A stretch of DNA of 64,000 bases, taken from Candidatus Micrarchaeota archaeon. Lineage in GTDB: Archaea > Micrarchaeota > Micrarchaeia > Micrarchaeales > CABMGC01. The notes beneath the pieces are model-generated. The model saw only the letters and a program-made list of their open reading frames with translations. It ran no database searches and was not told the DNA's origin. The translations under genes were made by a program, and so were the position numbers. Shown here in pieces: positions 2,771-43,810 of this stretch. Where the stretch lies: the NCBI GenBank assembly GCA_021802765.1, contig JAJZRI010000002.1, positions 27,299 to 91,298 of the forward strand. Reading direction: 5' to 3'. The stretch's first letter is position 1, and every line of letters starts with the position of its first letter.

Positions 2771-3020
2771 TACATAAAAATTGCAAATGAATCAAAATCA
2801 ATTGCAATTGCACCAATTCGTAATTCCAGTGTTAATTGCAGAAATTCAGACTCGTAGCATAGTAGTGTATGTTAAGCCTGCAATTTTTGAATAATTTTAT
2901 ATGCCGATATAATAATGCCCTAGGAAAATAGCCGCTAAATGACTACATATGTTGAACTTAGGGACAGATATTGGGAATTAGGAAAGAGATAGTTTTCTGA
3001 AAAATTCGATCAAACGAATG

Positions 3021-3029
3021 TATTTAAAT
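3021..3029 (+). promoter_or_regulatory. TATA box (TATTTAAAT) for the 3055 gene
   Basis: Centred about 30 nt upstream of ATG 3055. Confidence 0.5.
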
Positions 3030-3054
3030 CATACTTAACTATTATATTATAACT

Positions 3055-4617
3055 ATGTCCAGAAACATTCGCAAGAAGGAAAAGTTCCAGGCGTCTATAG
3101 AGTATCTCTCAACGTTTTCAATCGCACTTCTCATAATATTAATAATACTTGCAGTGGTTGGCCTTAATCTTTTCGGAAACAATTCCTTGCAGAACCTTGC
3201 CACATCCTCATGTTACTTGTCAGCAGAACTTCAGTGCTCTCAGATAGCCATATCAAACAACGGCATATCTACCTCAGCAATAATAATCTTCACAAATAAT
3301 TTAGGTAGGCAGATAAACTTCCAGAATTCAAACTCGATAGTGGTGACCTCCGGCACAACGCAGAAGTCCTACTATGGCAACTGCTATCCTGCAAACGCGG
3401 TTCCGGGCGCAACAGTGGTATGCAATGTTACCCTCTCAGGCTACTCCCCTTCAATAGGCGAGCAGCTCAGCCCAACATTCCAGCTAAAGTATTCAGAGTG
3501 CATAAGCGGGCAATGCATTGGCTATAATACTTCAGGAAGTGGGATAACCTATGTGGCCCCAAAGATTATTCTCTATCGTGTAAGGCTTCTTACAAGTCCT
3601 GACGGAGGGACGGTATCGGTAAACGGCGTCCCATACCTTAGCAACTCCATACTTTACTTCGTAGGAGACATATCCTATTCAATAGATGCGCAGTCATCTT
3701 ATGGCGGCACGGTATTTCAGGGCTGGATAACACAGGGTGGGGTCGTCGCTTCAAACACACTCAGGTTGTCCTCATCAGCCATAGCATCCTCAAACGGCAC
3801 TCTTGAAGCATCATACATCCCTCCAACCACATCCACTACTTCTACAACCACAAGTACGACTACCTCAACGTCTTCCACAACCACATCCACCACCTCTCCA
3901 ACTACCTCTTCAACCACCACCTCCCCAACCACCTCCCCAACCACCTCCCCAACCACTTCCCCAACCACTTTCCCAACCACTTCCCCAACCACCTCTCCAA
4001 CCACCTCTCCAACCACCTCCCCAACCACTTCCCCAACCACCAGTGCAACCACCTCCATTTCTTCTACAACTTCCATTACAACCACATCCACTTCCGCTAC
4101 AACCACTTCCATTTCATATGACGTATACTTTGTTGGAAGTCCTTCTGCCGGAGGAACTCCTACTGATGCTTCGGGCCAGACAACCTGTGTTGAATCTGCC
4201 GGCGGTGTTTGCGGAATGTATGCAAATACAAATTCTGGATATACCTTCTCACATTGGACCTGCTCCGGTGGGGCGTGCGCCTCCGCCGGTTACTGCGGCA
4301 CATGTTCCATCACGTCTGCCACAATCTACGGGTCATTAACCTTGACTGCATATTACACATCATCTGGAGGCACAACGACTGTTAACGGATGCAGCAGTTC
4401 CGGAGTCATATATGGAACCAACCAATGCAATGGCGCTTACTATGGTTATTGCTCAAGTCTCGGAACATCATACATATATGAGGGCGGCGCAGCAAATGAC
4501 GGTTGCACCGGATCCACACCCAACTTATGCCACACGTGTGGCGCAACTGATGATCTTGGAAACGTGGAAGGAACTTCAAATGATGATGGCGATAGCTGCG
4601 ACTCCTGGTCCTGTTGA
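3055..4617 (+). CDS. Class III signal peptide (pilin-like) surface protein, paralogue of 923..2770, with (TTSP)n linker and Cys-rich C-terminal module
   Basis: Signal region 'KKEKFQASIEYLSTFSIALLIILIILAVVG'. The N-terminal ~265 aa are collinear with the 923 gene. The C-terminus 'GYTFSHWTCSGGACASAGYCGTCSITSATIYGSLTLTAYY' is B-repeat-like, followed by a Cys/Gly/Asp-rich tail. Confidence 0.8.
   Translation: MSRNIRKKEKFQASIEYLSTFSIALLIILIILAVVGLNLFGNNSLQNLATSSCYLSAELQCSQIAISNNGISTSAIIIFTNNLGRQINFQNSNSIVVTSGTTQKSYYGNCYPANAVPGATVVCNVTLSGYSPSIGEQLSPTFQLKYSECISGQCIGYNTSGSGITYVAPKIILYRVRLLTSPDGGTVSVNGVPYLSNSILYFVGDISYSIDAQSSYGGTVFQGWITQGGVVASNTLRLSSSAIASSNGTLEASYIPPTTSTTSTTTSTTTSTSSTTTSTTSPTTSSTTTSPTTSPTTSPTTSPTTFPTTSPTTSPTTSPTTSPTTSPTTSATTSISSTTSITTTSTSATTTSISYDVYFVGSPSAGGTPTDASGQTTCVESAGGVCGMYANTNSGYTFSHWTCSGGACASAGYCGTCSITSATIYGSLTLTAYYTSSGGTTTVNGCSSSGVIYGTNQCNGAYYGYCSSLGTSYIYEGGAANDGCTGSTPNLCHTCGATDDLGNVEGTSNDDGDSCDSWSC
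3925..4040 (+). repeat. In-frame 12-bp tandem repeat (ccaaccacYtcY, about 10 units) encoding (PTTS)n
   Basis: Units read directly at 3925, 3937, 3949, 3961, 3973, 3985, 3997, 4009 and 4021, with a partial unit at 4033. Confidence 0.9.
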
Positions 4618-4636
4618 TAATTAAATAGGGTATAAT

Positions 4637-5494
4637 ATGGATGAAAAGATAAAACTGCTCATAACTGTATTTTCCATAATACTTGTAATTGTAGTAGTCC
4701 TTTTCTTATATTATGCCGATAATGCCACTTCAAAATTAAATGAATCAAATTACTCCATTTCAAATGTCTCAATACACGCAATGCATTCCATAGGCAGCAA
4801 ACCTAATTTCTCAATAGCTTACCTTGAGTATTCGACATATCCTGTATCGACCCAAACCGGCTATTCAAAAAATAATGGCTCATATTATACTACCTACTCT
4901 AAATACATCTATACTAATTATAGTGGATCATTGGTTCTCAACATCGCGTATCTTATCTCGCCTTATTACAATGCGTCAAGGGTATTAACTGGCATGATTG
5001 AAAATACGCTAAGTGGTGATTACATAAGCTGTTCACGCATGGATGCGTACGTCCTAGTAAATTGTACAAACACCCCTCCAAATCTCCCCTATCCCGGCCT
5101 AGAAGGTACTTTCCTCAATTTCCTAAATTTATCATTGCAAAATAGATACTATTACGTCAACGGTACAGTTCATACTTTTGCAAATCTTTCTTCATCCGAA
5201 ACTACTATCTCAAATTCCAGTTTCATTGGATATCCATGCCAGCTTAGCAGATCGCACATATTTGATGCACAATACCCAAGTATAAACGGAACTTCATATA
5301 GATGCATTTCATCTCAATATGGGGTTCCATTGCTCATATTCATAGACCTGCACGATCCGTATTACAACAATGTCGGCGCAGACATAATACTCAATGTATC
5401 TGCAATTTACATAAACCCAAAAGTTAATGAATCGTACTTTAAGATAGTTACAAACAGGACAGAACTATTCCCTCAAAGTATGATCAGTAAATAG
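4637..5494 (+). CDS. Membrane-anchored (N-terminal TM) extracellular protein rich in N-glycosylation sequons; function unknown
   Basis: TM segment 'LLITVFSIILVIVVVLFLYY'. I count 17 N-x-S/T sequons in 285 aa. It starts 19 nt after the preceding stop, so it is probably co-transcribed. Confidence 0.6.
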   Translation: MDEKIKLLITVFSIILVIVVVLFLYYADNATSKLNESNYSISNVSIHAMHSIGSKPNFSIAYLEYSTYPVSTQTGYSKNNGSYYTTYSKYIYTNYSGSLVLNIAYLISPYYNASRVLTGMIENTLSGDYISCSRMDAYVLVNCTNTPPNLPYPGLEGTFLNFLNLSLQNRYYYVNGTVHTFANLSSSETTISNSSFIGYPCQLSRSHIFDAQYPSINGTSYRCISSQYGVPLLIFIDLHDPYYNNVGADIILNVSAIYINPKVNESYFKIVTNRTELFPQSMISK

Positions 5495-5505
5495 GCGTAT
5501 ATTGT

Positions 5506-6204
5506 ATGCCAAGAAACCATCGAAAGGCAAAATCGCCAAACAAACGCAATGCAGTTGGCAAAACGATAGCCTTAGGCAAAAAAATATCAACGGCCGCGTT
5601 TATAATTATATTGGTTGTTGTTCTGTATTACGCTTCATCTGGCGCTGTTCGTAAGTTTAGCCCTACTACAACATCGCCAAAATTCAACAACGTAACACTT
5701 AACATAACTATGAAAGTGGTTAATGACCAGGCCCTGGCCGTTCCGTTCAATTATTACTGGGCTCTTGGCAATTATACTAAAAATATTGTTGCAACACCAG
5801 ATGGAAATTATTCCTACCTAGTAACCATTACATCAATTGGTAATTGGACTACTTTTAAAGGCCTAATGGACCCAAGGAATACCACTCCAGAGCCAAAAAA
5901 TGGTTCCGGAACATTCATTGAAACCTATTCCTTGCAGGTGCCAGGAAACCTAAACCTATCACGTCCGACAACTGGATTTATCGGCACATATAATTTTAAC
6001 GGGTCATTGCAAAACATTCTTGCAGGCATGCCACCAAGCAACATATTTAACTGGCCCGGAGCGTATTTTAGTACCGGCTTTGAGTATGTGAATTTGATTA
6101 ATGTCAACGAGACGTTCATGTATGGCAATCAGACATACAAGTACCATTATACAAATATTAACGGTCAAATAAATGAGACGCACAGTGGAGACATTTTAAC
6201 ATAG
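5506..6204 (+). CDS. Membrane-anchored (N-terminal TM) extracellular protein, sequon-rich; function unknown
   Basis: Basic N-terminus plus 'ISTAAFIIILVVVLYYA' TM. I count 12 N-x-S/T sequons. It starts 11 nt after the preceding stop. Confidence 0.6.
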   Translation: MPRNHRKAKSPNKRNAVGKTIALGKKISTAAFIIILVVVLYYASSGAVRKFSPTTTSPKFNNVTLNITMKVVNDQALAVPFNYYWALGNYTKNIVATPDGNYSYLVTITSIGNWTTFKGLMDPRNTTPEPKNGSGTFIETYSLQVPGNLNLSRPTTGFIGTYNFNGSLQNILAGMPPSNIFNWPGAYFSTGFEYVNLINVNETFMYGNQTYKYHYTNINGQINETHSGDILT

Positions 6205-16299: not shown

Positions 16300-17097
16300 C
16301 TAATCTCTCCGTATCTCCTTTATCTTTTCTATCAGTGCTCTTGTCTTTGGTAGCTTTCTGTAATCTGCATTATTAAATATATCATCAAATTTTTTATCGG
16401 CATCTTTAGGGAAGTATGTGGCAAGATCCCTTTTGAGTTCCTTTACGCTCATTGAAAGTTCATAGCGGTCCTTAAGGCTTATCTGAATTATGGCCTGAAT
16501 GTCCTTGCTGTCCTTGTCTCCGCGTCCCATCGCAGATTCACGGGCTGCAAGTTTCATTATTAATAGGTGTGGTATCGAGGCAACCAGGAATTCCATTTGT
16601 TCTCCGTTCTCATCGGTAAAGCGCCTGTCCTTACTGTCGCCTATTATGTCCCATATCGGCACGCCTCCTATATCATTTTTAGAGACTCTGCCGTTAACAG
16701 ATGAGACATATCCAGGATAATAAAGGTCTATCTTGATGAAACCGTCTGGCATAGTGCCATCAGTCTCTTTGCTATAATACTTGAGCTTCATTCTTGACGC
16801 AGAGGCAGGATCTCCGTTTATCTCAAATCTTGCTCCAAAAAGCGATGCGTATTCATTCATCGCATCGAATTCAGCTTTAGTTGGTTTGTGGTCAAGCACT
16901 ACATCTATGTCGTGCGAGGGTCTCCAGTGCTGCTTTGTCCATATGTTTACCGCCCTCCCGCCGATTATAACCACAGGAGTCTCCACCGCTGCTCCAACGA
17001 AATCAACAATCTTCTTCACTTCTATTGGAGGTATATTCGACCTACTAACCTCTGCCCTCCTACGGACGCCTCCCTGAGAATCTACTATTCTTGCCAT
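16300..17097 (-). CDS. Predicted nucleotidyltransferase-fold protein (AbiEii/MNT-like pattern)
   Basis: 'VVIIGGRAVNIWTKQHWRPSHDIDVVL' fits the hG[GS]-x(n)-DhDh nucleotidyltransferase motif. No partner gene is evident. Confidence 0.35.
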   Translation of the reverse strand: MARIVDSQGGVRRRAEVSRSNIPPIEVKKIVDFVGAAVETPVVIIGGRAVNIWTKQHWRPSHDIDVVLDHKPTKAEFDAMNEYASLFGARFEINGDPASASRMKLKYYSKETDGTMPDGFIKIDLYYPGYVSSVNGRVSKNDIGGVPIWDIIGDSKDRRFTDENGEQMEFLVASIPHLLIMKLAARESAMGRGDKDSKDIQAIIQISLKDRYELSMSVKELKRDLATYFPKDADKKFDDIFNNADYRKLPKTRALIEKIKEIRRD

Positions 17098-28134: not shown

Positions 28135-29535
28135 ATGAATAATAGGAACATAATATTCATAATGCTCGATACCGTAAGGGCTGACGTTCTAAAGCCCTAT
28201 GGGGGCGTCGCAGACGTGCCCAATATGGGGCGGTTAGCAAGCAATGGCGTAAAATACAACATGGCAATAGCTCCAGGAACTTACACTCTGCCATCGCATC
28301 TGTCCCTTTTCCTCGGAAAGAGGGTAAAAAGCATACCCGAGCTCAGGCGTACCGGAATGAAGTTCAGTGATCTAATGGCGGATCCGTTCCTGAAGAAGTC
28401 AAGATACAATACCAGCAATCTGACGATTGCCCAGGTGATGGAGTACTTCGGATACAAGAGTGCCCTGTTCTCCAACAATCCGTTCTTATCTGAATCGACG
28501 GGTCTTGCAACTGGCTTCTCTCACGTAAGTAATCTGTTTATAGACAATAAGATCAATGCCAACAATGCAAGGGTAAAGACCGTACTGAACCTGATACAGA
28601 ACGATCACACGCGCAGAGGTTTTGTAGATCTTGCCTACAAGATTGCATCCGTCATACCTGACAAGAGGCTTGACAGCATGTATCTCTCAATGAGGAAGAG
28701 GCTAAACAGGCATTTTTCCAGGGAGTATGGCTATTATGATATTGACAAGGGGGCTGACACTACGAACCGGCAGCTAGCAGAATACTTGCGACACAGCAGG
28801 TATGCGAGGAACTTTATCTTTATAAACTACATGGAAGGTCACGAAGGCTATCCTACAAACCTTATCACAAGAGATTACGTCGAACAGGACAAATGGCTCC
28901 ATATGACTGGCAAGGCAAGTCAGGAGGACCTTGGAAAAACAAAGGAGGCTTACATAAAAAGGATAGAATACCTGGACCACAAGATAGGCGAGGCTATAAG
29001 CATGATGGGTAAGGAGGGGGTTTTGGAAGATGCAACGCTGATAATTTCCAGCGACCACGGTCAGGCATTCATGGAACATGGCCATATGTTCCATAACGTG
29101 TATCCGTACAACGAGGTGACACGGGTGCCGCTAATAATAGCTAACTTTAGGAACGGCAGGCAGATGAGGCAGCGCAGGAGGATAGATCACCCATTTAGTC
29201 TCACCGATCTTAATAGGATCATAACTGGAAATGAACCTGATCGTACCAAGCCTGTTTTTTCGGATCATATCGGAATAACAGAGGTATGGGACACCCACCT
29301 GCTGCAATTATTCAGGAAGAGAAGCCCAAATGCCGAAATGATCTACCGCAAAAAGATCGAGGAGGACAAGCATGCAACTGCAATATACAGCGATGGGCAC
29401 AAGCTTATCCATTACTATGGAAAAAAACCTGATGAGCTTTACTCCGTCGATGACCTTGGGGAGTCGTCAAACCTCATAGGCAAGAAAAGGGGTCTAGCCA
29501 TGAAGATCCTCTCCTATGACAAAATTGGTGCTTAA
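28135..29535 (+). CDS. Sulfatase-like (alkaline phosphatase superfamily) hydrolase/transferase
   Basis: 'IIFIMLDTVRAD' and 'IISSDHGQAF'. The nucleophile motif reads 'TYTLPSH' instead of C/S-x-P-S-R. Confidence 0.7.
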   Translation: MNNRNIIFIMLDTVRADVLKPYGGVADVPNMGRLASNGVKYNMAIAPGTYTLPSHLSLFLGKRVKSIPELRRTGMKFSDLMADPFLKKSRYNTSNLTIAQVMEYFGYKSALFSNNPFLSESTGLATGFSHVSNLFIDNKINANNARVKTVLNLIQNDHTRRGFVDLAYKIASVIPDKRLDSMYLSMRKRLNRHFSREYGYYDIDKGADTTNRQLAEYLRHSRYARNFIFINYMEGHEGYPTNLITRDYVEQDKWLHMTGKASQEDLGKTKEAYIKRIEYLDHKIGEAISMMGKEGVLEDATLIISSDHGQAFMEHGHMFHNVYPYNEVTRVPLIIANFRNGRQMRQRRRIDHPFSLTDLNRIITGNEPDRTKPVFSDHIGITEVWDTHLLQLFRKRSPNAEMIYRKKIEEDKHATAIYSDGHKLIHYYGKKPDELYSVDDLGESSNLIGKKRGLAMKILSYDKIGA

Positions 29536-30131
29536 ACTGTTTTTAGTATATCATACACAGTTATTATTCCGACGGCCTTTCCTCTTTCTACTACAATGAC
29601 TCCTCCACTGCTTTCAAGTATTATCTTTAGCCCTGCGATTTCAGCATCTCTATCTATCTGCGGAAGTGATGCTTTCATGACGCTGCCCACGCGCCTGCGC
29701 TTTACCATGTCTGGATTATGCATCGCATCATCGAGAAGATCCTTCTGGTATACTGTCCCGACAACACGTCTGGATCCATCTAACACTGGAAGTTGTGGGA
29801 AATCGTAGTCTTTGAATAGTTCTATCGCATCATACACTGAGGCAGATGGCGTTATCGATATTATGTGCCTGTGCATTATCTCTTTTGCCGTCATCGTTCT
29901 GACCGAAGAAGGTTTGTTTGTGCTGAGCTTGTTCAGGGCGCTTGCAACATAAAACACCGATGCATAACTCGGATTCAGCCTTACCACATCCGTCTCAATC
30001 CTTGCTATAGTGCTCTGGCTCATCCCGCACATCTTGGCCAGCCTCTTCTGGCTTACCTTCATTAAGCGTCTCTGCTCCCTTATTGTTGCAGCAATCTGTT
30101 CAAGCGAACTCACTTCTATCGTCATAATCAT
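29532..30131 (-). CDS. Transcriptional regulator: XRE-type HTH plus tandem CBS domains
   Basis: 'MKVSQKRLAKMCGMSQSTIARIE' HTH, then two CBS repeats ('TAKEIMHRHIISITPSASVYDAIELF', 'RVGSVMKASLPQIDRDAEI...VVERGKAVGIITVYDI'). The start is taken at the internal ATG (30129-30131). The track's TTG extension to 30203 is AT-rich promoter sequence. Confidence 0.75.
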   Translation of the reverse strand: MIMTIEVSSLEQIAATIREQRRLMKVSQKRLAKMCGMSQSTIARIETDVVRLNPSYASVFYVASALNKLSTNKPSSVRTMTAKEIMHRHIISITPSASVYDAIELFKDYDFPQLPVLDGSRRVVGTVYQKDLLDDAMHNPDMVKRRRVGSVMKASLPQIDRDAEIAGLKIILESSGGVIVVERGKAVGIITVYDILKTV

Positions 30132-30180
30132 TACCAATAGTAATTTTATGCATATAATGATTATATATCTATTTATATTG
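30131..30180 (+). promoter_or_regulatory. Conserved promoter/operator module, copy 1 (upstream of PLP enzyme gene, overlapping the HTH-CBS gene 5' region)
   Basis: ttaccaatagtaattttatgcatataatgattatatatctatttatattg aligns with 31431-31481. By my count about 42 of 51 columns match, including an exact 12-mer gtaattttatgc and an exact 10-mer atttatattg. Confidence 0.5.
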
Positions 30181-30215
30181 ACTACCCACAAAAATACCTG
30201 CAACAGAGTGATACC

Positions 30216-31418
30216 ATGCCGCGCAGAAGATTCCAGCGAGACAAATCTGCTGTTCCATCATTTTCATCTGGAGCAGAAGTGGAGGATAGCTACAGGATGA
30301 GACGTGACATCCGTGGTTTTGACACTCAAATAGCATCCAAAGAGGAGAAGGCTATTAAGATGCGGGATCTCTACCCAAGGGACGGGTTCAAAGCTCTTAC
30401 GAGACTGGAGAAAAAGTTAGGGAATATAATTGGTGTAGATCCGGGAAGGCTTCTTGCATATCCTTCAGGAATGTCGGCAGTTGTGGCGGCGATAGAATCC
30501 GCACACCTGACTGCAGGCAGCAAGATACTCCTTGGACAGGATCATTACACAGAAATAGCAAGGTACGTTGATGATCACTTAAGGCCTCGGGGCGTGGAGG
30601 TGGCACGTGTAGATTCCGGAAACTCAAAAGATATCCATGACAGCATAGTTGCTCATAGCCCCGACGTGATTTTCTTTGAGACGGTGGCAAATGGCACTTC
30701 AATGCCAGTACTTGACATAGACGACCTTCTGTCATCTGTGTCAAATGGAAAAGGAAAGATGCCGCTCATAATATTGGACAATACTCTTTCAACTCCGACC
30801 AACATACCTGCTTCGAAGTTCTTTGCCGGCCGATCAACAAGAATAATTGTTGTTGAGAGTGGGACAAAGTCTTATGCCATGAATTCAGAGACTCTCGGCA
30901 TACTCTATACAAATGACAAGGTGCTTTGGACACAGCTTTTTAGTTCAAGGATAACCGTAGGATACACTCCGACACCGTCATCAATAGACCGGATATCAAA
31001 GCATCTTCCAGAATCTTCATGGTCATTCGATAGCCGTAACAACCGCATCTTCAAGAATACTCTCAGACTCGCCGAGCATTGCCTAGCCGCAGCCGCAGAG
31101 AACTCCAACCTCACAGTGGTGCATCCAAATCTTCATAATCATCCAAATAGCACGCTATCCAACTCAATAAATCAATCGGGAGTGACTCCGGTGTTCTACA
31201 TAAATAATGGCTTGAACCAGTACGAGCTGGTAGATAAACTCTTTGAAAATCCCATCATAAAGGGGTATTGCAAGATAAGCCAGAGCTTTGGATTTGACGA
31301 AACGCGCATATATCCGTATTACGGCAACACATTCGTGAGATTCGCTGCGGGAACTGAGAGCAATAAGAAGGTGGAGGAAATAGGGCTTGCAATCTATTCA
31401 GTATTGAGGAAGCAGTAG
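30216..31418 (+). CDS. Cys/Met-metabolism PLP-dependent enzyme family protein (cystathionine gamma-synthase/lyase-like, divergent)
   Basis: 'IIVVESGTKSYAMNSE' is the S-x-T-K PLP-lysine motif. 'YPSGMSAVVAAIE' and the ~400-aa size also fit. Confidence 0.6.
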   Translation: MPRRRFQRDKSAVPSFSSGAEVEDSYRMRRDIRGFDTQIASKEEKAIKMRDLYPRDGFKALTRLEKKLGNIIGVDPGRLLAYPSGMSAVVAAIESAHLTAGSKILLGQDHYTEIARYVDDHLRPRGVEVARVDSGNSKDIHDSIVAHSPDVIFFETVANGTSMPVLDIDDLLSSVSNGKGKMPLIILDNTLSTPTNIPASKFFAGRSTRIIVVESGTKSYAMNSETLGILYTNDKVLWTQLFSSRITVGYTPTPSSIDRISKHLPESSWSFDSRNNRIFKNTLRLAEHCLAAAAENSNLTVVHPNLHNHPNSTLSNSINQSGVTPVFYINNGLNQYELVDKLFENPIIKGYCKISQSFGFDETRIYPYYGNTFVRFAAGTESNKKVEEIGLAIYSVLRKQ

Positions 31419-31430
31419 ATCAGCGATAGA

Positions 31431-31481
31431 TTACTAATGGTAATTTTATGCGCGATAATAATTATCTGTCCATTTATATTG
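31431..31481 (+). promoter_or_regulatory. Conserved promoter/operator module, copy 2 (upstream of SAM synthetase gene)
   Basis: ttactaatggtaattttatgcgcgataataattatctgtccatttatattg ends 29 nt before ATG 31510. Confidence 0.5.
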
Positions 31482-31509
31482 TTTGATTTGCACTATTTTG
31501 TTATATTAG

Positions 31510-32733
31510 ATGGTTAAAATGTCCAGGAACATATCTGTAAATAGGCTCAGCGGGACCCCAGTCTCGCAGCAGAAAGTAGAATACGTGGAAAGGAAGGGGA
31601 TAGGGCATCCAGACAGCCTTATAGATGGGATATGCGATGCAACAAGTCATGCGCTCAGCAGGGAGTATCTCGAAAGATGCGATAACACAATACTTCATCA
31701 CAATGTGGACAAGGGGCTGATAATCGGCGGCGCATCGCAGGCGCGCTTTGGATACGGCAAGATAACAAAGAAGATAGAGGTTATAGTGGCTGGTAGGGCG
31801 ACGGACAGGTACAGGGGGGTCAAGATAGATGTTAATGATATAGCCAAGGAAGTTGCAATGAAGTATCTCAAGGAGAATACGCGGTTCCTTGATGTCAACA
31901 ATGAGGTTACGTTCGTATCAAAGATTGCAAGGGGCAGTGCTGATCTCACAGACGTATTCATAAGGAATTCCAAGAACAATGATGTGCCGCTGGCCAATGA
32001 TACCTCGTTTGGGATAGGTTTCGCGCCATTCACAGACATCGAAAAGCTTGTTCTGGAGACCGAGAGGTACCTAAATAGCAGGGCTTACAAGGCCATTCTG
32101 CCATCTGTAGGAGAAGACATAAAGGTCATGGGATTTAGAAACGGAGATGAGATAACCCTTACGATAGCCATAGCCTTTGTGGCAAAACTTGTCAAGAATC
32201 TTGACATATATCTGTCATACAAGGAGAAGGTTAGAAAGGACGTTCTCAGGTTTGCCGCAAAGCTGGTTGACAAGAAGGTGAACGTATTTGTGAACACCGC
32301 CGATCCGGAGGACAGCGACGCAGTGTATCTGACAAAGACTGGCCTTAGCTGTGAGGCTGGGGATGACGGTTCAGTAGGCAGGGGAAACAGGGTTAACGGG
32401 CTCATAACCCCATTTAGGCCGATGAGCCTTGAGGCCGCAGCAGGAAAGAATCCGATAAACCACATAGGCAAGATCTACAATATACTTGCTACAGAGATAG
32501 CAAATGATGTGGTGAAGAATTACCCATCAATAATAGAGTGCAATCTTGCAATAATGTCACAGATAGGCAAGAAGATAGACCAGCCGCTCAACCTCAACCT
32601 TGAGATAGCAACTGGCAAAGGCGAGAACTTCGATAATATAAAGAGCAAGGCAAAGTACATTGCAGATGGCAGGCTCGAGAAGATAGGGGACTTCACAATA
32701 GACATATCCCTAGGCAAGTACAAGACCTTCTAA
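31510..32733 (+). CDS. metK: Archaeal-type S-adenosylmethionine synthetase
   Basis: 'VERKGIGHPDSLIDGICD' and 'GLSCEAGDDGSVGRGNRVNGLITP', at the ~405-aa size typical of archaeal MAT. Confidence 0.9.
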   Translation: MVKMSRNISVNRLSGTPVSQQKVEYVERKGIGHPDSLIDGICDATSHALSREYLERCDNTILHHNVDKGLIIGGASQARFGYGKITKKIEVIVAGRATDRYRGVKIDVNDIAKEVAMKYLKENTRFLDVNNEVTFVSKIARGSADLTDVFIRNSKNNDVPLANDTSFGIGFAPFTDIEKLVLETERYLNSRAYKAILPSVGEDIKVMGFRNGDEITLTIAIAFVAKLVKNLDIYLSYKEKVRKDVLRFAAKLVDKKVNVFVNTADPEDSDAVYLTKTGLSCEAGDDGSVGRGNRVNGLITPFRPMSLEAAAGKNPINHIGKIYNILATEIANDVVKNYPSIIECNLAIMSQIGKKIDQPLNLNLEIATGKGENFDNIKSKAKYIADGRLEKIGDFTIDISLGKYKTF

Positions 32734-32827
32734 GTTCGTTGCACGTCTTGTCTTGGCCGTCAGAAAGGGCAGCATAAATCTATAGAGTTAGCCTTAGCTA
32801 AGTGGTACTTTGATTGCCAAGCAGGAA

Positions 32828-33133
32828 TCAGGAGAGCGACATCTCGATCTGGACCGTGTCTGGCACAGGTATTCTCATTACCTGCCTGAGAGCCTGATCG
32901 CTTCCGTCTATCTCTACAATCAGCTTGTGGATTCTCATCTCCCATCTTTCGTATGTGTGGGAGCCGTCTCCACAAGGAGTCTTCCTTACGGTGACCTTGT
33001 ATCTCCTTGTGGGAAGAGGAACTGGACCCTTGAACTTTATGTTTATGGCCTTGGCAATCTCAACGATCTGCCCAGCTATTCCATGGGCGTCCTTTACGTT
33101 CCTGCTTATTATCTTGATTCTGGCTATAGGCAA
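32828..33133 (-). CDS. rps10: 30S ribosomal protein S10 (uS10)
   Basis: 'ARIKIISRNVKDAHGIAGQIVEIAK...KGPVPLPTRR'. It lies directly downstream of tuf, as in most archaea. Confidence 0.95.
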   Translation of the reverse strand: MPIARIKIISRNVKDAHGIAGQIVEIAKAINIKFKGPVPLPTRRYKVTVRKTPCGDGSHTYERWEMRIHKLIVEIDGSDQALRQVMRIPVPDTVQIEMSLS

Positions 33134-33137
33134 TAAA

Positions 33138-34409
33138 TCACTGCTTCTTTACCAGGTCAAGAACGACTCCTGCTGCGACAGTCTGTCCCATATCCCTTAT
33201 GGCAAACCTGCCAAGAGGTGGGAAGTCTGAGAACTTCTCAATGCACGTAGGCTTGAGAGGTTTTATCTTGACTATTGCAACATCACCGTTCTTTATGAAC
33301 TCTGGGTTCTTCTGGAGAGTCTGGCCCGTCTTAGGATCCTTTTTCTCCACTATCTCGGTGATTGTGCATGCCACCTGCGCGGTGTGCACGTGGAACACAG
33401 GGGTGTATCCAGGGGCTATTGCAGTTGGGTGGTTTATTACCACTATCTGCGCGGTGAACTCCGCAGCTACTGTAGGTGGGTCGTTTGAAGGTCCTATTAC
33501 GTCTCCTTTTCTAACGTCCTTCTTGTCAACACCCTTTATGTTGAATCCTACATTGTCCCCAGGCTGCGCCTGCTGCATCTGCTGGTGGTGCATTTCTATG
33601 GACTTTACCTCAGTCTTTACGCCTGCAGGCATTATAATTATTGAATCACCTACCTTCATGACTCCTGTCTCAACCCTTCCTACTGGAACGGTTCCGAATC
33701 CTGATATGCTGTAAGCATCCTGGACCGGAAGTCTTAGCGGCTTGTTCACTGGTTTTTCAGGCACTGTTAGTGTGTCGAGAGCCTCGAGCAGCGTCGGTCC
33801 GTTGTACCATGAAAGCTTGGCGGATTTTGCAGCCACATTGTCTCCTTCAAGTGCTGAATACGGAACGAAAAGTATCTTTGAAACGTCGAATCCTACTGTC
33901 TTGAGCAGCTCAGATACCTTGTTCTTTGCGTCATCGAACTTTGCCCTGTCGAATCCTATTGCGTCTACCTTGTTGAGACCAACTATTATCTGTTTTATTC
34001 CTAGAACTCTTGCAAGGTATGCGTGCTCTCTTGTCTGTGACTGCACTCCATCTGGTGCCGATACCACAAGAACGGCAGCGTCTGCCTGGCTTGCTCCTGT
34101 AATCATGTTCTTTACGAAGTCCCGGTGTCCAGGCGCGTCGATTATTGTGAAGTAGTACTTAGGGGTCTGGAAGTCACGGTGCATAATGTCGATAGTGATT
34201 CCTCTCTCCCTCTCCTCCTTGAGCTGGTCCATGACGAATGCAAACTCGAATGACGGCCTGTTGTATTTTGCTACTTCGTCCTTGAGCTTCTTCATGTCCT
34301 GTTCAGTTACTGCCTTTGTTTCGTAAAGCAGCCTTCCTACTGACGTCGACTTTCCGTGGTCTATATGACCTATGAAAATCAAATTCATGTGTGGTTTTTC
34401 GCTTACCAT
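33138..34409 (-). CDS. tuf: Translation elongation factor 1-alpha
   Basis: G1 'GHIDHGKST', G3 'DAPGHRDF' and G4 'NKVD'. 423 aa. Confidence 0.98.
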
Positions 34410-35503: not shown

Positions 35504-35745
35504 ATTCTCATCTTACTGTCAAGGCATGCTGTAGTCCTAGTCCATGCAGATGCGTATGGGATTCCTACATGCGTTCCTGAATGTCTGTTTCAAGAGTAGT
35601 CAAGTACATCTCCATTCAGAGGCCACCATCCTACATGATTTTGCAGGCCGAACGGAGCACCTCCTATCTCCTCAAGATAAAATTTGCCCATTGCATTTGT
35701 ATTTAGGGTTGCATTATAGAGCTTGAAGCGCATGTTGAGTTGCAT
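35500..35745 (-). pseudogene. Remnant of the C-terminal part of a LamG-type pilin-like gene (paralogue of 61259..62149) with an in-frame TGA
   Basis: Own translation: 'MRFKLYNATLNTNAMGKFYLEEIGGAPFGLQNHVGWWPLNGDVLDYS*NRHSGTHVGIPYASAWTRTTA'. Paralogue: 'LQIYNTSLSSGEISALYQEGIGGVPVDPTHIAGWWPLNGNAQDYSGNSHNGQLTGISWNGTWTSGYTA'. The stop at 35590-35592 aligns with a Gly in the paralogue. There is no N-terminal part upstream. Confidence 0.5.
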
Positions 35746-35810
35746 AAAACGCCCTATCAATTGGGCGTCTAGGCTCAGCCATTTAAAATTTCACCAACGT
35801 CAACCGGCGG

Positions 35811-35948
35811 TTACTTTCCATCCCTAAGGAGCTTCTCTATCTGTTGCATATCGTCTTCAGTGAGGCCGTAGATCTTCACAGGAATCTTTACGGGCTCCCG
35901 CTTGATATGCTCTATTTTTATGCGCTTAGGCTTTTTCATTTCTGCCAT
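35811..35948 (-). CDS. Possible small basic protein (45 aa); function unknown
   Basis: Own translation: MAEMKKPKRIKIEHIKREPVKIPVKIYGLTEDDMQQIEKLLRDGK. It falls below the ORF-track cutoff and has no recognisable motif. Confidence 0.25.
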   Translation of the reverse strand: MAEMKKPKRIKIEHIKREPVKIPVKIYGLTEDDMQQIEKLLRDGK

Positions 35949-36048
35949 GAACTAAACCTTACCTTCAGGTTCTTTATAGGTTTTCTCCAATTTATTGCAG
36001 GTCGAATTATCTAGCAGTCAAAGGTAATTCTGTGCAGCAAAACAAGAT

Positions 36049-36120
36049 AGCTCCAGCCAGATTCGAACTGGCGTCAACGGGTTCAGAGCCCGTTATCCTT
36101 GACCACTAGACGATGGAGCT
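36049..36120 (-). tRNA. tRNA-Gln (anticodon CUG)
   Basis: Folded by hand. Acceptor AGCTCCA/TGGAGCT (7 bp). Anticodon stem ACGGG/CCCGT with loop CTCTGAA. T-arm GCCAG-TTCGAAT-CTGGC. D-loop AGTGGTCAA. No encoded CCA. A TATA-like atttattaaaat lies about 25-37 nt upstream. Confidence 0.92.
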
Positions 36121-36161
36121 TTGACAGCTTTAATAAGCGATGAGCATTTTAATAAATCTAC

Positions 36162-36899
36162 TTGCATATTATATCTGATTCAATGCCTCCTTACATACGC
36201 GCAACTATGGTCTCCAGCGAGATATCGGATATGATCGTTGCAGACCTCGCACTGACCGTCGCATTTACAATAATATTCACTGGAGGGCTGTCGTCTTTCA
36301 ACATACTAACATTCGTATCCTTTCTTCCAATAGCATTCGTTGCAGTTTCTCTCTCGTTCATACTCCACGAATATATGCACAAAAAGGTGGCGCAAAGATT
36401 CGGGGCCATGGCCGCATTCAAGAAGTGGGACTCTGGCATAATAATAACCCTGCTCTCATCCGTTTTTGGTTTCCTGATCGGCCTTCCGGGAGCCACGATG
36501 ATATATTCAAACACCTTCACAATCGAGGAGGAAGGCTATGTGTCGCTTGCAGGACCGCTGACAAACTTTGTGATCTTCCTTGTATTCTTCCTGATAGAGA
36601 TATTTTTGGGTGCTAGTCTAAGCCCTTATCTCCTTAGCATGGTGGGCTTCACAATGTTCATAAGCGTCTGGTTGGCGTTCTTCAACATGCTCCCAGTATA
36701 TCCTCTTGATGGAAGCAAGGTTCTGCGGTGGAACAAGACCGTGTATGTGATATGCGTATTGCTGATTTTCGTCTTCCTCTATGTTGCGGCCACGCAGGTA
36801 TTTGGTATCCAGGCCTTATCGCTCGTGATGTCCATGGTATTTGCATTTGCAATAGCCCTGGTCTTCTCTTTCATGTTCGGCCTTAGGAGGATCTTCTGA
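36162..36899 (+). CDS. M50-family site-2 protease (membrane zinc metalloprotease)
   Basis: 'ILHEYMHKKVAQ' (HExxH) and 'FFNMLPVYPLDGSKV' (NxxPxxxLDG), in a multi-TM protein. ATG 36183 is a plausible true start instead of TTG 36162. Confidence 0.85.
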   Translation: MHIISDSMPPYIRATMVSSEISDMIVADLALTVAFTIIFTGGLSSFNILTFVSFLPIAFVAVSLSFILHEYMHKKVAQRFGAMAAFKKWDSGIIITLLSSVFGFLIGLPGATMIYSNTFTIEEEGYVSLAGPLTNFVIFLVFFLIEIFLGASLSPYLLSMVGFTMFISVWLAFFNMLPVYPLDGSKVLRWNKTVYVICVLLIFVFLYVAATQVFGIQALSLVMSMVFAFAIALVFSFMFGLRRIF

Positions 36900-42651: not shown

Positions 42652-43713
42652 TTAAACAATCAGGCTCCAGATATTTCCGACAAGCGTCTGATAAGCTTCG
42701 CATGCGGTCCATGCTCCCGGCTCCTTGCCCTGCGCTATAAGCTTCCTTACCTCCTCGGCTTCGCTATTGTGCCATATCTTGGATAGGTCATAATCCGTCT
42801 CTCTTATGCTTCCTATCTTCCTGTTCCACATTATCGATGGAAAAACGTTTCCGTAGCTGTCCATGAACAGCGAGGCGTCAAGGCTCCGTCCGCGCATCGG
42901 TGAGTTGCCGGTCTTTATGTAGTACCCAAGCCTCTTTAGGAATGCATTTTCAACTATAGGTATGGCTCCTATTTCAGGTCTTCTTGCTTTTAGGAACTGG
43001 TCCAGTTCGCCTACGAATCCTGCAGCATCTGGCCTGAGCTGCATGTCCGAATTCTTGTAATAAGTGTCTGATGTCTGTCCTACATTCACGTGAAAGTTGT
43101 TGGCAGTGACCCATGGGAGCTCCTTTTGAACCTGGGCTATGGTCTCCATAAGCTTCCCTTCGTTGTACTTGCTCATCGTGTACCCGAAGACGAAGAAGAG
43201 ATTACGGTATCTTGACTGCATCTCCTTAAGTCGCTTTGCCATTCCCATAACCCTGTCAAAATTCCCAGGTATGCCTCTTATCTTATCATGCAGCTCGCGA
43301 TAGCCATCCAGGCTCAGGGTTATTGAGACCTTCGGTATGCCTAGCTGTAGTATGGATTCTATTCTTCCCGCAACCATGTCGGGGTTGCATAGGGAATTTG
43401 TCGGCATTGTCACTATGTAAAGATCCTTGGAGTTATCCTTGAAGGCCTTTACTATGTCAACAATGTCGCTTCTCAGGAATGGTTCGCCTCCTGTTATTTC
43501 TACCCACTTGAAATAGTTGTTCTTCTGGGCGAATGCAGTTATCTCTCGCAGGTCGAGCTCTCCTGTCGGCTTTATCTGCCATATATTGCAGGTCAGGCAG
43601 CGCGACTGGCAAGAGTAGGTTATCGAAAAGGTGAGCTTGTAGGGCCGGTCAAGACGCGCAAAATTGCTCCTAAGCGCGGTCAAGCCAAGTCCTGCCAGCT
43701 TTACAGAGTCCAT
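42652..43713 (-). CDS. Radical SAM enzyme (SPASM-like C-terminal region lacking most Cys ligands)
   Basis: 'ITYSCQSRCLTCNIW' (CxxxCxxC) and 'EITGGEPFL'. The C-terminus 'LFMDSYGNVFPSIMWNRKIGSIRE...IWHS' is SPASM-shaped, but Ser occupies the Cys positions. Confidence 0.75.
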   Translation of the reverse strand: MDSVKLAGLGLTALRSNFARLDRPYKLTFSITYSCQSRCLTCNIWQIKPTGELDLREITAFAQKNNYFKWVEITGGEPFLRSDIVDIVKAFKDNSKDLYIVTMPTNSLCNPDMVAGRIESILQLGIPKVSITLSLDGYRELHDKIRGIPGNFDRVMGMAKRLKEMQSRYRNLFFVFGYTMSKYNEGKLMETIAQVQKELPWVTANNFHVNVGQTSDTYYKNSDMQLRPDAAGFVGELDQFLKARRPEIGAIPIVENAFLKRLGYYIKTGNSPMRGRSLDASLFMDSYGNVFPSIMWNRKIGSIRETDYDLSKIWHNSEAEEVRKLIAQGKEPGAWTACEAYQTLVGNIWSLIV

Positions 43714-43782
43714 CTATTATCCCCAGATATCTCTAATTTGATATTGATATATTATTATATGTTAGGGAATAACTTATACAAG

Positions 43783-43790
43783 TAATTTAT
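43783..43790 (+). promoter_or_regulatory. TATA box (TAATTTAT) for the 43811 gene
   Basis: Centred about 24 nt upstream of ATG 43811. Confidence 0.4.
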
Positions 43791-43810
43791 GCAAAAGGTG
43801 CATCAAAAGT

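What the first reader, a model, noticed from the sequence alone, without database searches (positions are those of the whole stretch)
29532..32733. Shared ~50-bp upstream element on a Cys/Met PLP-enzyme gene and the SAM synthetase gene, adjacent to an HTH-CBS regulator
Seen in the sequence:
- 30131-30180 and 31431-31481 align at about 42 of 51 positions by my count. This includes the exact 12-mer GTAATTTTATGC and the exact 10-mer ATTTATATTG.
- They share the architecture: distal box, about 18 nt, TATA-like box, 29-36 nt, ATG.
- Copy 1 also overlaps the 5' end and probable transcription start region of the divergent HTH(XRE)+2xCBS gene.

Established knowledge: CBS pairs commonly bind adenosyl ligands, including SAM.

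Inference: the HTH-CBS protein may be a SAM- or adenosyl-ligand-responsive regulator. It would act on both genes and on itself through the distal box.

Caveats:
- The region is AT-rich.
- Related strings occur upstream of other genes ('GTAATTTATGC' at ~43782 and 'taattttatatgcc' at ~2893). Part of the match may be generic promoter sequence.
Basis: partly seen in the sequence, partly recalled or inferred. Interest (0 to 1): 0.55.

Follow-up and report, generated by a model that had tools for sequence, protein, structure and literature searches.

The report
Conserved operator controlling archaeal SAM synthetase
In this tiny symbiotic archaeon (Micrarchaeota), the same roughly 50-bp control region, built around the palindrome ATTAC-N5-GTAAT, sits in front of the SAM-synthetase gene and a neighbouring sulfur-amino-acid enzyme gene. 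It lies next to a DNA-binding protein with a small-molecule-sensing domain, and the arrangement is conserved across the phylum, so it is probably a previously undescribed feedback switch for the cell's main methyl donor.

Summary
- 30130-30180 and 31430-31481 match at 43 of 52 aligned columns.
- This is by far the best match among 1378 pairs of upstream regions in the window (score 32.5, next best 17). It lies about 12 SD above dinucleotide shuffles.

**What it is.**
- The core is a 15-bp palindrome, ATTAC-YANYR-GTAAT (O1), followed by TTTATGC, a TATA box for the regulator (box A) and a TATA box for the downstream gene (box B).
- In 25 of 27 informative Micrarchaeota species genomes, the HTH(XRE)+CBS regulator gene is divergently adjacent to the archaeal SAM-synthetase gene (MAT).
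- O1 lies 0-12 nt from the regulator's start codon in 26 of 28.
- The PLP-enzyme gene is a patchy addition. It is either co-transcribed behind MAT or inserted between the regulator and MAT with a second copy of the control region.
- In that second copy O1 and box B are kept, but the regulator's TATA core has decayed.

**Best reading.** The regulator binds O1 as a dimer, autoregulates, and controls MAT and the PLP gene in response to an adenosyl ligand, most plausibly SAM.

**Not shown.** Ligand, sign of regulation and binding itself are inferred. I found no published description. I rate it a new variant of a known kind, of moderate interest.

The parts
29532..30125 (-). Regulator gene (REG), 197 aa: N-terminal XRE-type HTH, a short linker, then a C-terminal CBS pair (Bateman module).
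   Evidence: - Pfam HTH_3 at 37 bits and CBS at 66.8 bits.
- AF2 model has pLDDT 86.9, with four helices in residues 8-68 and two beta-alpha-beta-beta-alpha units in residues 80-196.
- PDB sequence and fold matches cover residues 79-195 only.
- The start at 30125 is supported by homologues of 193-204 aa that align from residue 1.
30130..30144 (.). O1 copy 1: palindrome ATTAC-caata-GTAAT, 4 nt from the REG start codon. Proposed binding site for a REG dimer.
   Evidence: - Exact match.
- Arms are nearly invariant in 34 aligned sites from more than 30 species, while the spacer varies as YANYR.
30145..30151 (.). Extension TTTATGC directly after O1. It is conserved in both copies and is the left part of a weaker second palindrome (WTTAT-N5-RTAAT) in some species.
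   Evidence: - TT at positions +16/+17 in 27 and 33 of 34 sites.
- Tandem second palindrome in L003, L004, L012, L044 and L175.
30154..30169 (-). Box A (ATAATGATTATATATC): inferred TATA box of REG, reading on the minus strand. It places the REG transcription start at about 30137, the centre of O1.
   Evidence: - It lies a fixed 15-16 nt from O1 in all species, with the T at +32 invariant in 34 of 34 sites.
- It is present in L025, where the upstream gene is co-directional, so it cannot serve a divergent gene there.
- Its TATA core has decayed in every copy 2.
30170..30180 (+). Box B copy 1 (TATTTATATTG): inferred TATA box of the PLP gene, starting 45 nt before the ATG.
   Evidence: - Part of the exact shared 10-mer.
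- Other genes with short leaders in this window have TATA-like boxes starting at -42 to -47.
30216..31418 (+). Divergent member of the Cys/Met-metabolism PLP-dependent enzyme family, 400 aa. Specific reaction unassigned.
   Evidence: - Pfam PF01053 at 70.6 bits.
- All NCBIfam equivalogs fall far below their cut-offs.
- The PLP-lysine motif SGTK aligns to STTK of 5x5h.
- Homologues at 35-41% identity in CPR bacteria overlap a PALP-enzyme gene.
31430..31444 (.). O1 copy 2: palindrome ATTAC-taatg-GTAAT, 11 nt after the PLP stop codon and upstream of MAT.
   Evidence: - Exact match.
- Retained in L001, L044 and L175/L176 at the same place, although no regulator gene is adjacent.
31445..31451 (.). 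Extension TTTATGC, copy 2.
31455..31469 (.). Box A remnant (ATAATAATTATCTGT). The TATA core is lost.
   Evidence: The same decay, AATTATCTG, is seen in L001 copy 2. AATTAGTCG is seen in L044 and L175 copy 2.
31471..31481 (+). Box B copy 2 (CATTTATATTG): inferred TATA box of MAT.
   Evidence: - Exact shared 10-mer.
- Conserved in L001 copy 2.
- It starts 47 nt before ATG 31519.
31510..32733 (+). Archaeal-type S-adenosylmethionine synthetase (MAT). The real start is probably the second ATG at 31519.
   Evidence: - Pfam PF01941 at 521 bits.
- NCBIfam NF003366 at 464.8 bits, above its cut-off of 435.
- Homologues start M-x-(R/K)-N-I-S.

Best explanation
The roughly 50-bp element is the control region of a small, phylum-wide regulatory unit in Micrarchaeota: an autoregulated one-component transcription factor (XRE-type HTH plus a CBS/Bateman sensor) and its target, the SAM-synthetase gene.

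**Proposed mechanism**
- A regulator dimer binds the 15-bp palindrome ATTAC-YANYR-GTAAT (O1). The two 5-bp arms are centred 10 bp apart, one helical turn.
- O1 lies between the regulator's own TATA box (box A) and its start codon, centred on the predicted transcription start. Occupancy should therefore block RNA polymerase recruitment, giving autorepression.
- The same site lies about 25 nt upstream of the TATA box (box B) of the divergent gene. From there the regulator can either activate or, together with the weaker adjacent site, repress.
- Ancestrally the divergent gene is MAT.
- In the window's lineage a Cys/Met-family PLP-enzyme gene sits between the regulator and MAT, and the O1-box B module is present twice. 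The PLP gene and MAT each get the same input.
- The Bateman module senses an adenosyl metabolite, most plausibly SAM, closing a feedback loop on SAM synthesis.

**What is shown and what is inferred**
- Shown: the repeat, the palindrome, its conservation and position, the synteny and the duplication pattern.
- Inferred: that the regulator, and not another protein, binds O1; the transcription start sites; the sign of regulation at MAT and the PLP gene; and the ligand.
For: **Repeat significance.** Score 32.5 against a next best of 17 in 1378 pairs. z is about 12 against shuffles.

**Specificity**
- Exact O1 occurs twice in the window and nowhere else. About 0.09 exact matches are expected from base composition (my own calculation).
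- In 321 kb of Micrarchaeota DNA, exact O1 occurs only beside the REG start or at copy 2.

**Phylogenetic footprint**
- In 34 sites the arms read A34 T34 T33 A32 C28 and G29 T34 A34 A34 T34. The central spacer base is free.
- Two sites carry the symmetric variant ATTAT...ATAAT.

**Position.** O1 is 0-12 nt from the REG start codon in 26 of 28 species with the 5' region available.

**Synteny.** REG and MAT are divergently adjacent in 25 of 27 informative genomes.

**Recognition helix.** S36, Q37 and R42 are invariant, and S38, T39 and A41 are at least 90% conserved, across 63 homologues down to 40% identity. This matches the invariant operator.

**Natural dissection of the control region**
- Two clades that are separate on the REG tree carry REG<>PLP->MAT: window+L001 and L044/L175/L176.
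- In both, copy 2 keeps exact O1, WTTATGC and box B but has lost the box A TATA core.
- In L025 box A precedes REG with no divergent gene present.

**Age of the copies.** Between the window and L001, four-fold degenerate sites are only 34-56% identical, yet the O1 arms, the extension and the TATA cores are 100% identical in both copies.

**Co-regulation of the PLP gene reached in other ways.** MAT->PLP with 16-50 bp gaps in L019 and L046/L047, and MAT->small ORF->PLP in L174.

**Further SAM-related neighbour.** A SAM_HAT_C (DUF62)-like gene follows MAT in L044, L009 and L003 (weak scores).

**Sensor type**
- The CBS2 motif G-I-I-T-V-Y-D has G186, I187 and D192 invariant and T189 at least 90% conserved. 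This is the G-h-h-T-x-x-D ribose-binding pattern of adenosyl-ligand sites (established knowledge).
- Bateman modules that sense SAM are known in prokaryotes, for example M. tuberculosis cystathionine beta-synthase (PMC9232105).

**Not an RNA element.** No Rfam family matches in 29400-33200. The O1 hairpin is worth only -0.4 to -1.5 kcal/mol.
Against: - There are no binding, expression or transcription-start data. Every functional step is inferred.
- The ligand is unidentified. The Bateman module matches AMP/ADP/ATP binders (AcuB) as well as SAM binders.
- The residue equivalent to human CBS D444, a SAM contact, is Pro in REG.
- In the more distant clades the distance from O1 to the likely MAT TATA box and start codon varies (about 45-110 nt). 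Direct control of MAT from O1 is less certain there than autoregulation.
- A 42%-identical PLP homologue encoded elsewhere (L171-173) has no O1. A 33%-identical HTH-CBS homologue (L170) is not next to MAT and has no O1.
- No regulon member outside the locus could be found or excluded. The only collection-wide motif scan was swamped by chance hits.
- Within each genome the two copies share lineage-specific details, so gene conversion may contribute to their similarity.
Confidence: 0.62

Rival explanations
1. Same operator and regulator, but the Bateman module senses adenine nucleotides (ATP, ADP, AMP or energy charge) rather than SAM. MAT, which consumes a whole ATP per turnover, would then be tuned to energy state, as the B. 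subtilis repressor CcpN (HTH plus two CBS domains) is modulated by ATP/ADP.
For: - The best structural and sequence matches of the sensor include AcuB with AMP/ADP/ATP/Ap4A, MJ1225 and other nucleotide binders.
- NCBIfam gives a weak CcpN hit.
- The D444 equivalent of human CBS is not conserved.
Against: - The only conserved targets are MAT, a Cys/Met PLP enzyme and, in some lineages, a SAM-hydrolase-like gene. That is a SAM and methionine theme, not an energy theme.
- No ATP-synthase or central-metabolism gene in the window carries O1.
Confidence: 0.22
2. Copy 2 is a passive by-product of how the PLP gene was inserted (duplication of the regulator-MAT intergenic region) and has no regulatory role. 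Only copy 1 is functional.
For: - The PLP gene is flanked by direct repeats of the ancestral intergenic region.
- Within each genome the two copies share lineage-specific details. Recent duplication or gene conversion would explain that.
Against: - Between the window and L001 neutral sites are near saturation (34-56% identity at four-fold sites), yet copy 2 keeps the O1 arms, the extension and box B at 100% while the spacer and flanks differ.
- Decay in copy 2 is selective. Only the box A TATA core is lost, and this happened in two separate clades.
Confidence: 0.06
3. O1 is bound by a different transcription factor, or is a core-promoter or initiator element of the regulator gene. The HTH-CBS protein would then have other targets.
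For: There is no direct evidence that REG binds O1. O1 is centred on the predicted REG transcription start, so part of its conservation could reflect promoter function.
Against: - O1 is found at no other promoter in more than 320 kb.
- It is a two-fold symmetric site with a free central base, typical of HTH dimers.
- It is retained in copy 2, where there is no REG promoter.
- The REG recognition helix is invariant in parallel with the site.
Confidence: 0.07
4. The similarity is generic AT-rich archaeal promoter sequence (BRE/TATA), or an RNA-level element such as a hairpin terminator after the PLP gene or a leader structure.
For: - The region is 26% GC.
- In copy 2, O1 followed by TTTTAT superficially resembles a hairpin plus T-tract after the PLP stop codon.
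Against: - No other pair of upstream regions in the window comes close.
- The hairpin is worth only -0.4 to -1.5 kcal/mol, with z between -0.25 and -1.6.
- No Rfam family matches.
- In most species nothing lies upstream to terminate.
Confidence: 0.03

Closest known systems
CcpN (Bacillus subtilis repressor of gluconeogenic genes; HTH plus two CBS domains)
   Same: - One-component transcription factor with an N-terminal DNA-binding domain fused to a Bateman module that binds adenosyl ligands.
- It represses by binding at or near promoters.
   Different: - Not an orthologue. The NCBIfam CcpN model scores 27.4 bits against a cut-off of 260 and matches the CBS region only.
- Different domain of life, different targets and different operator.
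- CcpN responds to ATP/ADP (my knowledge, not checked in a paper here).
MetJ (E. coli methionine repressor, SAM as co-repressor); SahR and SamR (proteobacterial SAH/SAM-linked regulators; PMC4239095, PMC3228920)
   Same: - Same logic: a transcription factor that senses a methyl-cycle metabolite and controls metK and methionine-metabolism genes.
- Usually autoregulated.
   Different: - Unrelated folds: MetJ is ribbon-helix-helix and SahR/SamR are ArsR-type. Their operators differ.
- All are bacterial.
- Pfam finds only HTH_3, HTH_31 and CBS in REG.
SAM riboswitches upstream of bacterial metK
   Same: Feedback control of SAM synthetase by SAM.
   Different: - RNA-based.
- No Rfam match anywhere near the locus.
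- The conserved element here lies upstream of the TATA box, so it is not in the MAT transcript.
Archaeal dual regulators whose effect depends on site position relative to BRE/TATA (TrmBL1/Tgr of Thermococcales, Ptr2, Lrp-type factors)
   Same: - A site downstream of the TATA box, over the transcription start, predicts repression. A site upstream of the TATA box predicts activation.
- O1 has the first geometry for REG and the second for MAT and the PLP gene.
   Different: - Different protein families.
- The rule is recalled from the literature and was not tested here.
HhpR of Pyrococcus yayanosii (four CBS domains, transcriptional activator; PMC11705074)
   Same: An archaeal CBS-domain protein acting in transcription. 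That paper also notes uncharacterised HTH+CBS proteins in Thermococcaceae.
   Different: - HhpR has no HTH and responds to pressure.
- The NCBIfam HhpR model scores 34 bits against a cut-off of 520.
SAM-sensing Bateman modules of cystathionine beta-synthase (human, PDB 4uuu; M. tuberculosis, PMC9232105)
   Same: - Same sensor fold.
- The G-h-h-T-x-x-D motif and the F and Q positions of the SAM cleft align.
   Different: - There the module regulates an enzyme, not a DNA-binding domain.
- D444 of human CBS aligns to Pro in REG.

Membership tests
XRE-family (HTH_3, PF01381) transcription regulators | HTH_3 domain above Pfam's gathering score | tested here: met
   37 bits against a cut-off of 23, residues 15-65. 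The AF2 model has four helices in residues 8-68.
XRE-family (HTH_3, PF01381) transcription regulators | Binds a two-fold symmetric operator as a dimer | not testable with these tools
   A suitable 15-bp palindrome with arms one helical turn apart lies next to the gene in 26 of 28 species. Binding itself is not shown.
CBS-pair (Bateman) domain proteins | Two tandem CBS motifs forming one module | tested here: met
   - Pfam CBS at 66.8 bits.
- PDB sequence matches span residues 79-195 of Bateman modules.
- Foldseek gives TM about 0.8 on the target, rmsd 2.0-2.6 Å over 121-128 columns.
CBS-pair (Bateman) domain proteins | Binds an adenosyl ligand (AMP, ATP, SAM and others) | not testable with these tools
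   The motif G186-I-I-T189-V-Y-D192 is conserved: G186, I187 and D192 are invariant and T189 is at least 90% conserved. Ligand identity cannot be read from sequence or fold.
CcpN family (NF053704) | Score at or above the NCBIfam equivalog cut-off | tested here: not met
   27.4 bits against a cut-off of 260, matching the CBS region only.
Known SAM/SAH-responsive regulators (MetJ, SahR, SamR) and SAM riboswitches | Homology to MetJ or ArsR-type domains, or an Rfam SAM-riboswitch match near MAT | tested here: not met
   Pfam reports only HTH_3, HTH_31 and CBS. Rfam finds nothing in 29400-33200 at E up to 1.
Autoregulated divergent regulator-target pair (comparative-genomics criterion for a regulon) | Conserved site in the shared intergenic region across diverged genomes, absent elsewhere | tested here: met
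   25 of 27 genomes show the synteny and 26 of 28 carry the site. No exact site occurs elsewhere in 321 kb.
Cys/Met-metabolism PLP-dependent enzymes (PF01053) | Domain above the gathering score, with the Schiff-base lysine | tested here: met
   70.6 bits against a cut-off of 27. The K of SGTK aligns with the K of STTK in 5x5h.
Specific CGL, CGS, CBL or MGL equivalogs | Score at or above any NCBIfam equivalog cut-off | tested here: not met
   The best is 72.5 bits against a cut-off of 440. The specific reaction is unassigned.
Archaeal-type methionine adenosyltransferase (PF01941 / NF003366) | Score above the family cut-off | tested here: met
   521 bits in Pfam. NF003366 scores 464.8 bits against a cut-off of 435.

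The most novel reading that the evidence does not exclude
The HTH-CBS protein is a SAM-sensing transcription factor.
- It would be the first SAM-responsive transcription factor described in Archaea.
- It would be the first case of a Bateman module coupling SAM levels to DNA binding.
- From a single palindrome it would repress its own gene and activate (or co-repress) the SAM-synthetase gene.
- Its operator-promoter module would have been copied, possibly twice independently, to bring a sulfur-amino-acid enzyme under the same control.
Probability: 0.35. Interest if true: 0.72.

Novelty: new variant of a known kind. Interest (0 to 1): 0.58.

Why it matters
- How archaea keep SAM levels in check is essentially unknown. 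They lack the SAM riboswitches and the MetJ/SahR-type factors that do this in bacteria.
- Here a dedicated regulator, a precisely defined 15-bp operator and an obvious target are conserved across a whole phylum of genome-reduced symbiotic archaea that retain few regulators. That suggests SAM homeostasis matters to them.
- The hypothesis is directly testable with one purified 197-aa protein and a 30-bp DNA duplex.
- The duplicated module is also a clean natural example of how a gene is recruited into a regulon by copying an operator-promoter cassette. Selective decay reveals which sub-elements serve which gene.

Tried and rejected
**Collection-wide motif scan.** I scanned metagenome contigs with ATTACYRNYRGTAATWTTATG to find regulon members outside the locus.
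- 79 of the 80 returned loci were chance matches, mostly inside AT-rich coding sequence.
- Only L087 was a true regulator-MAT locus.

**Bare count of the palindrome.** At 1 mismatch or fewer, the count of ATTAC-N5-GTAAT in the window is not significant on its own (2 found, 1.8 expected). The significance comes from exactness, position, flanks and cross-species conservation.

**Ligand from structure.** The AF2 model plus Foldseek against the PDB matched only the Bateman half, with both nucleotide- and SAM-bound relatives. An alignment to the human CBS regulatory domain was ambiguous.

**Wider family.**
- One distant homologue (33% identity, L170) is not next to MAT and has no O1. The association may therefore be limited to the Micrarchaeota orthologues; n = 1.
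- A PLP homologue outside the locus (L171-173) has no O1.

**Literature.** Searches for COG3620, XRE+CBS, Micrarchaeota plus SAM, and archaeal methionine or SAM regulators found no description of this system.

**Rejected readings.**
- RNA element.
- Generic promoter similarity.
- Second palindrome ATAAT-N1-ATTAT in box A as a second operator of the same dimer. The arm spacing is incompatible with O1, and the block decays where no regulator gene follows.

Full report
**Setting**

The window is archaeal. It carries an archaeal-type SAM synthetase, EF-1alpha, ribosomal protein S10, deoxyhypusine synthase, TFB and A-type ATPase subunits. GC content is 46.8%.

Homologues of the regulator come almost only from Candidatus Micrarchaeota (DPANN) genomes.

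Gene order at the locus:
- sulfatase-like gene, 28135-29535 (+)
- regulator REG, 29532-30125 (-)
- PLP enzyme, 30216-31418 (+)
- MAT, 31510/31519-32733 (+)
- S10 and EF-1alpha (-)

REG has HTH_3 (37 bits) and CBS (66.8 bits). The PLP enzyme is a weak PF01053 member (70.6 bits). MAT is unambiguous at 521 bits.

**Observation**

The two copies are 30130-30180 and 31430-31481, with 43 identities in 52 columns. The repeat finder recovers both halves.

- I aligned the 100 nt upstream of each of 53 called ORFs against each other. This pair scores 32.5, the runner-up 17, and the mean is 8.3 with SD 1.8 over 1378 pairs.
- Dinucleotide shuffles of the two 26%-GC intergenic regions give z = 11.6-12.4.

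**Anatomy**

The left end of each copy is a perfect palindrome: ATTAC-caata-GTAAT and ATTAC-taatg-GTAAT (O1). Exact ATTAC-N5-GTAAT occurs nowhere else in the 64 kb.

The count at 1 mismatch or fewer is not significant by itself (1.8 expected). About 0.09 exact copies are expected from base composition (my calculation).

After O1 come three blocks:
- TTTATGC.
- An AT-rich block, ATAAT-N-ATTATATA (box A).
- TATTTATATTG (box B), 35-37 nt before the start codon of the downstream gene.

**Relatives**

A scan of one genome per species (GTDB) with a regulator profile returned 31 Micrarchaeota loci. tblastn with the window's proteins shows REG divergently adjacent to MAT in 25 of the 27 loci where this can be judged.

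- The exceptions are L016 and L025. L021 is cut by a contig end.
- The usual flanks are also conserved: sulfatase-like and DHS genes on one side, S10 and EF-1alpha on the other.
- O1 with 1 mismatch or fewer lies 0-12 nt from the REG start codon in 26 of 28 loci that include the 5' region. L005 and L009 have degenerate versions, and L009's is the symmetric variant ATTAT...ATAAT.
- In 321 kb of Micrarchaeota sequence no exact O1 occurs anywhere else. The handful of 1-mismatch hits are mostly one conserved coding position in the DHS gene.

A 34-site alignment anchored on O1 gives:
- left arm A34 T34 T33 A32 C28
- spacer Y, A32, N, Y, R
- right arm G29 T34 A34 A34 T34
- TT at +16/+17
- box A at a fixed +27 to +38, with an invariant T at +32

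The REG recognition helix is correspondingly conserved. S36, Q37 and R42 are invariant, and S38, T39 and A41 are at least 90% conserved, in 63 homologues down to 40% identity.

**The PLP gene is a variable passenger**

It lies between REG and MAT only in these lineages:
- the window and L001 (REG 82% identical)
- a second clade, L044, L175 and L176 (REG 54% identical), which is separate on a neighbour-joining tree of REG

In other lineages it follows MAT:
- L019 and L046/L047, with gaps of 16-50 bp, so presumably one transcript
- L174, with a small ORF in between

Wherever the PLP gene is in this locus, it shares MAT's control, either by operon or by a second copy of the control region.

A more distant homologue elsewhere in another genome (42% identity, L171-173) has no O1.

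**The duplication dissects the control region**

- In both PLP-between clades, copy 1 (next to REG) has an intact box A (ATTATATAT).
- Copy 2 (after the PLP stop codon, before MAT) keeps exact O1, WTTATGC and box B. It has lost the TATA core of box A: AATTATCTG in the window and L001, AATTAGTCG in L044 and L175.
- In L025 the gene upstream of REG is co-directional, yet box A is still there at the usual distance.
- Box A is therefore best read as REG's own TATA box, and box B as the TATA box of the downstream gene.

In archaea the TATA box is centred about 26-27 nt upstream of the start site (established knowledge). This fits the window, where apparently leaderless genes have TATA-like boxes starting at -29 to -32.

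On that rule:
- The REG start falls at about 30137, the centre of O1.
- Box B starts at -45 (PLP gene) and -47 (MAT, counting from ATG 31519). That matches other short-leader genes in the window, at -42 to -47.
- O1 therefore ends about 25 nt upstream of box B.

**Selection or recency?**

Between the window and L001, four-fold degenerate sites are 34% (REG), 44% (PLP) and 56% (MAT) identical, which is close to saturation. In both copies the O1 arms, the TTTATGC extension and the TATA cores are identical, while the O1 spacer and the flanks differ.

That is purifying selection on specific blocks, not recent duplication.

Within a genome the two copies share lineage-specific details: TTTATGC and ATTTATATTG in the window, ATTATG and TATATAA in L044. 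So independent duplication or some gene conversion cannot be excluded. Either way the module is maintained.

**Protein**

- The AF2 model (pLDDT 86.9) shows a four-helix HTH domain, a low-confidence linker at residues 70-74 and a Bateman module.
- PDB sequence and fold searches match only the Bateman half. I found no solved structure with this architecture.
- Matches include nucleotide-bound AcuB and the SAM-bound human CBS regulatory domain, so the ligand cannot be assigned.
- The motif G-I-I-T-V-Y-D fits the ribose-binding pattern of adenosyl sites.
This is inconclusive.

**Mechanism proposed**

- A REG dimer binds O1.
- At its own promoter the site covers the transcription start, which predicts autorepression.
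- At MAT and the PLP gene the site is upstream of the TATA box. In several archaeal systems this is the activator position.
- Alternatively, cooperative occupancy of the weaker adjacent palindrome (WTTAT-N5-RTAAT) could reach the promoter and repress. That palindrome is clear in L003, L004, L012, L044 and L175.
- The Bateman module would switch DNA binding in response to an adenosyl metabolite.

SAM is the most economical candidate for three reasons:
- The one universal target is SAM synthetase.
- The recruited passenger is a Cys/Met-family enzyme.
- In three lineages a SAM_HAT_C (DUF62, SAM hydrolase-like) gene follows MAT. Its scores are weak, at 19-26 bits.

My confidence by step:

| Step | Confidence |
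|---|---|
| REG binds O1 and autoregulates | about 0.8 |
| O1 also controls MAT and the PLP gene in the window's clade | about 0.7 |
| The ligand is SAM or a close derivative | about 0.4-0.45 |
| Sign of regulation at MAT | open |

**What the PLP enzyme may do**

- It keeps the Schiff-base lysine but reaches no NCBIfam equivalog cut-off.
- Its nearest relatives outside Micrarchaeota are in CPR bacteria. In one CPR context the gene overlaps a 490-aa PALP-enzyme gene.
- That would fit a transsulfuration pair (cystathionine beta-synthase-like plus gamma-lyase-like). This is a lead, not an assignment.

**Comparison and novelty**

- Functionally the system resembles MetJ, SahR or riboswitch control of metK in bacteria (PMC4239095, PMC3228920). 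Architecturally it resembles CcpN.
- It is a member of none of these.
- HTH+CBS proteins in archaea have been noticed but not characterised (PMC11705074).
- Six literature searches found no description of this regulator, its operator or its link to MAT.
- I rate it a new variant of a known kind: an autoregulated one-component regulator with a divergent target. The sensor-target combination is new, and it would be the first candidate SAM-homeostasis regulator in archaea.

**Limits**

- Everything functional is inferred.
- The regulon outside the locus is unknown, because the motif scan of metagenomes failed.
- The association may not extend beyond Micrarchaeota.

Noticed in passing
L044:4214-5068; L009:2784-3686 (-); L003:2797-3432 (-): In three Micrarchaeota lineages a gene with a weak SAM_HAT_C (DUF62, SAM hydroxide adenosyltransferase) match follows MAT on the same strand, 18 nt after its stop codon in L044. 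Scores are 26.1, 23.7 and 19 bits against a cut-off of 25.5. A SAM-cleaving enzyme co-transcribed with SAM synthetase would be odd and fits a SAM-centred locus. The window lacks this gene.
   Followed up: partly
L048:3542-6137; L049:66-2667: The closest non-Micrarchaeota relatives of the PLP enzyme (35-41% identity) are in CPR bacteria. In one such context the gene overlaps by 14 nt a 490-aa PALP-fold enzyme gene. This may be a minimal transsulfuration pair shared between DPANN and CPR symbionts.
   Followed up: partly
L016:4699-5000, compared with L010 and L015: - In L010 and L015 the order is REG<>MAT->GT4 glycosyltransferase.
- In L016 the same GT4 gene sits about 300 nt from REG with no MAT between, which looks like a MAT deletion. 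O1 and box A are retained.
- The same MAG (DAHXKV01) has a second contig (L020) with a different REG<>MAT pair, so it holds either two paralogous units or a mixed bin.
   Followed up: partly
L010 (DATJMH010000012.1) and protein P0038: This contig and protein are labelled Candidatus Saccharimonadales (a CPR bacterium). The contig carries the archaeal-type MAT next to REG with O1, so it is probably a mis-binned Micrarchaeota contig.
   Followed up: no
window 31510 vs 31519; window 30125 vs 30131: Start codons are ambiguous.
- MAT has ATGs at 31510 and 31519. Homologues and the TATA distance favour 31519.
- REG has ATGs at 30125 and 30131. The public gene call (P0001, 199 aa) uses 30131, which overlaps O1. 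Homologues favour 30125.
   Followed up: partly
window 923-6204: Four consecutive same-strand ORFs of 615, 520, 285 and 232 aa have no Pfam match at E up to 1e-5. They lie just upstream of the A-type ATPase operon.
   Followed up: no
window 16300-17097 (-): An ORF with a weak AbiEii (type IV toxin-antitoxin nucleotidyltransferase) match, 26.8 bits, lies next to the diphthamide synthase gene.
   Followed up: no
window 42713-43810 and 35504-36182: Two long non-coding gaps of 1098 and 679 nt. The second holds the window's only tRNA gene (tRNA-Gln, 36048-36120, minus strand). Rfam finds nothing in the first.
   Followed up: partly
window 29532-29535: The convergent sulfatase-like gene and REG overlap by 4 nt at their 3' ends. 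The sulfatase-like and DHS genes flank REG in most close relatives.
   Followed up: no
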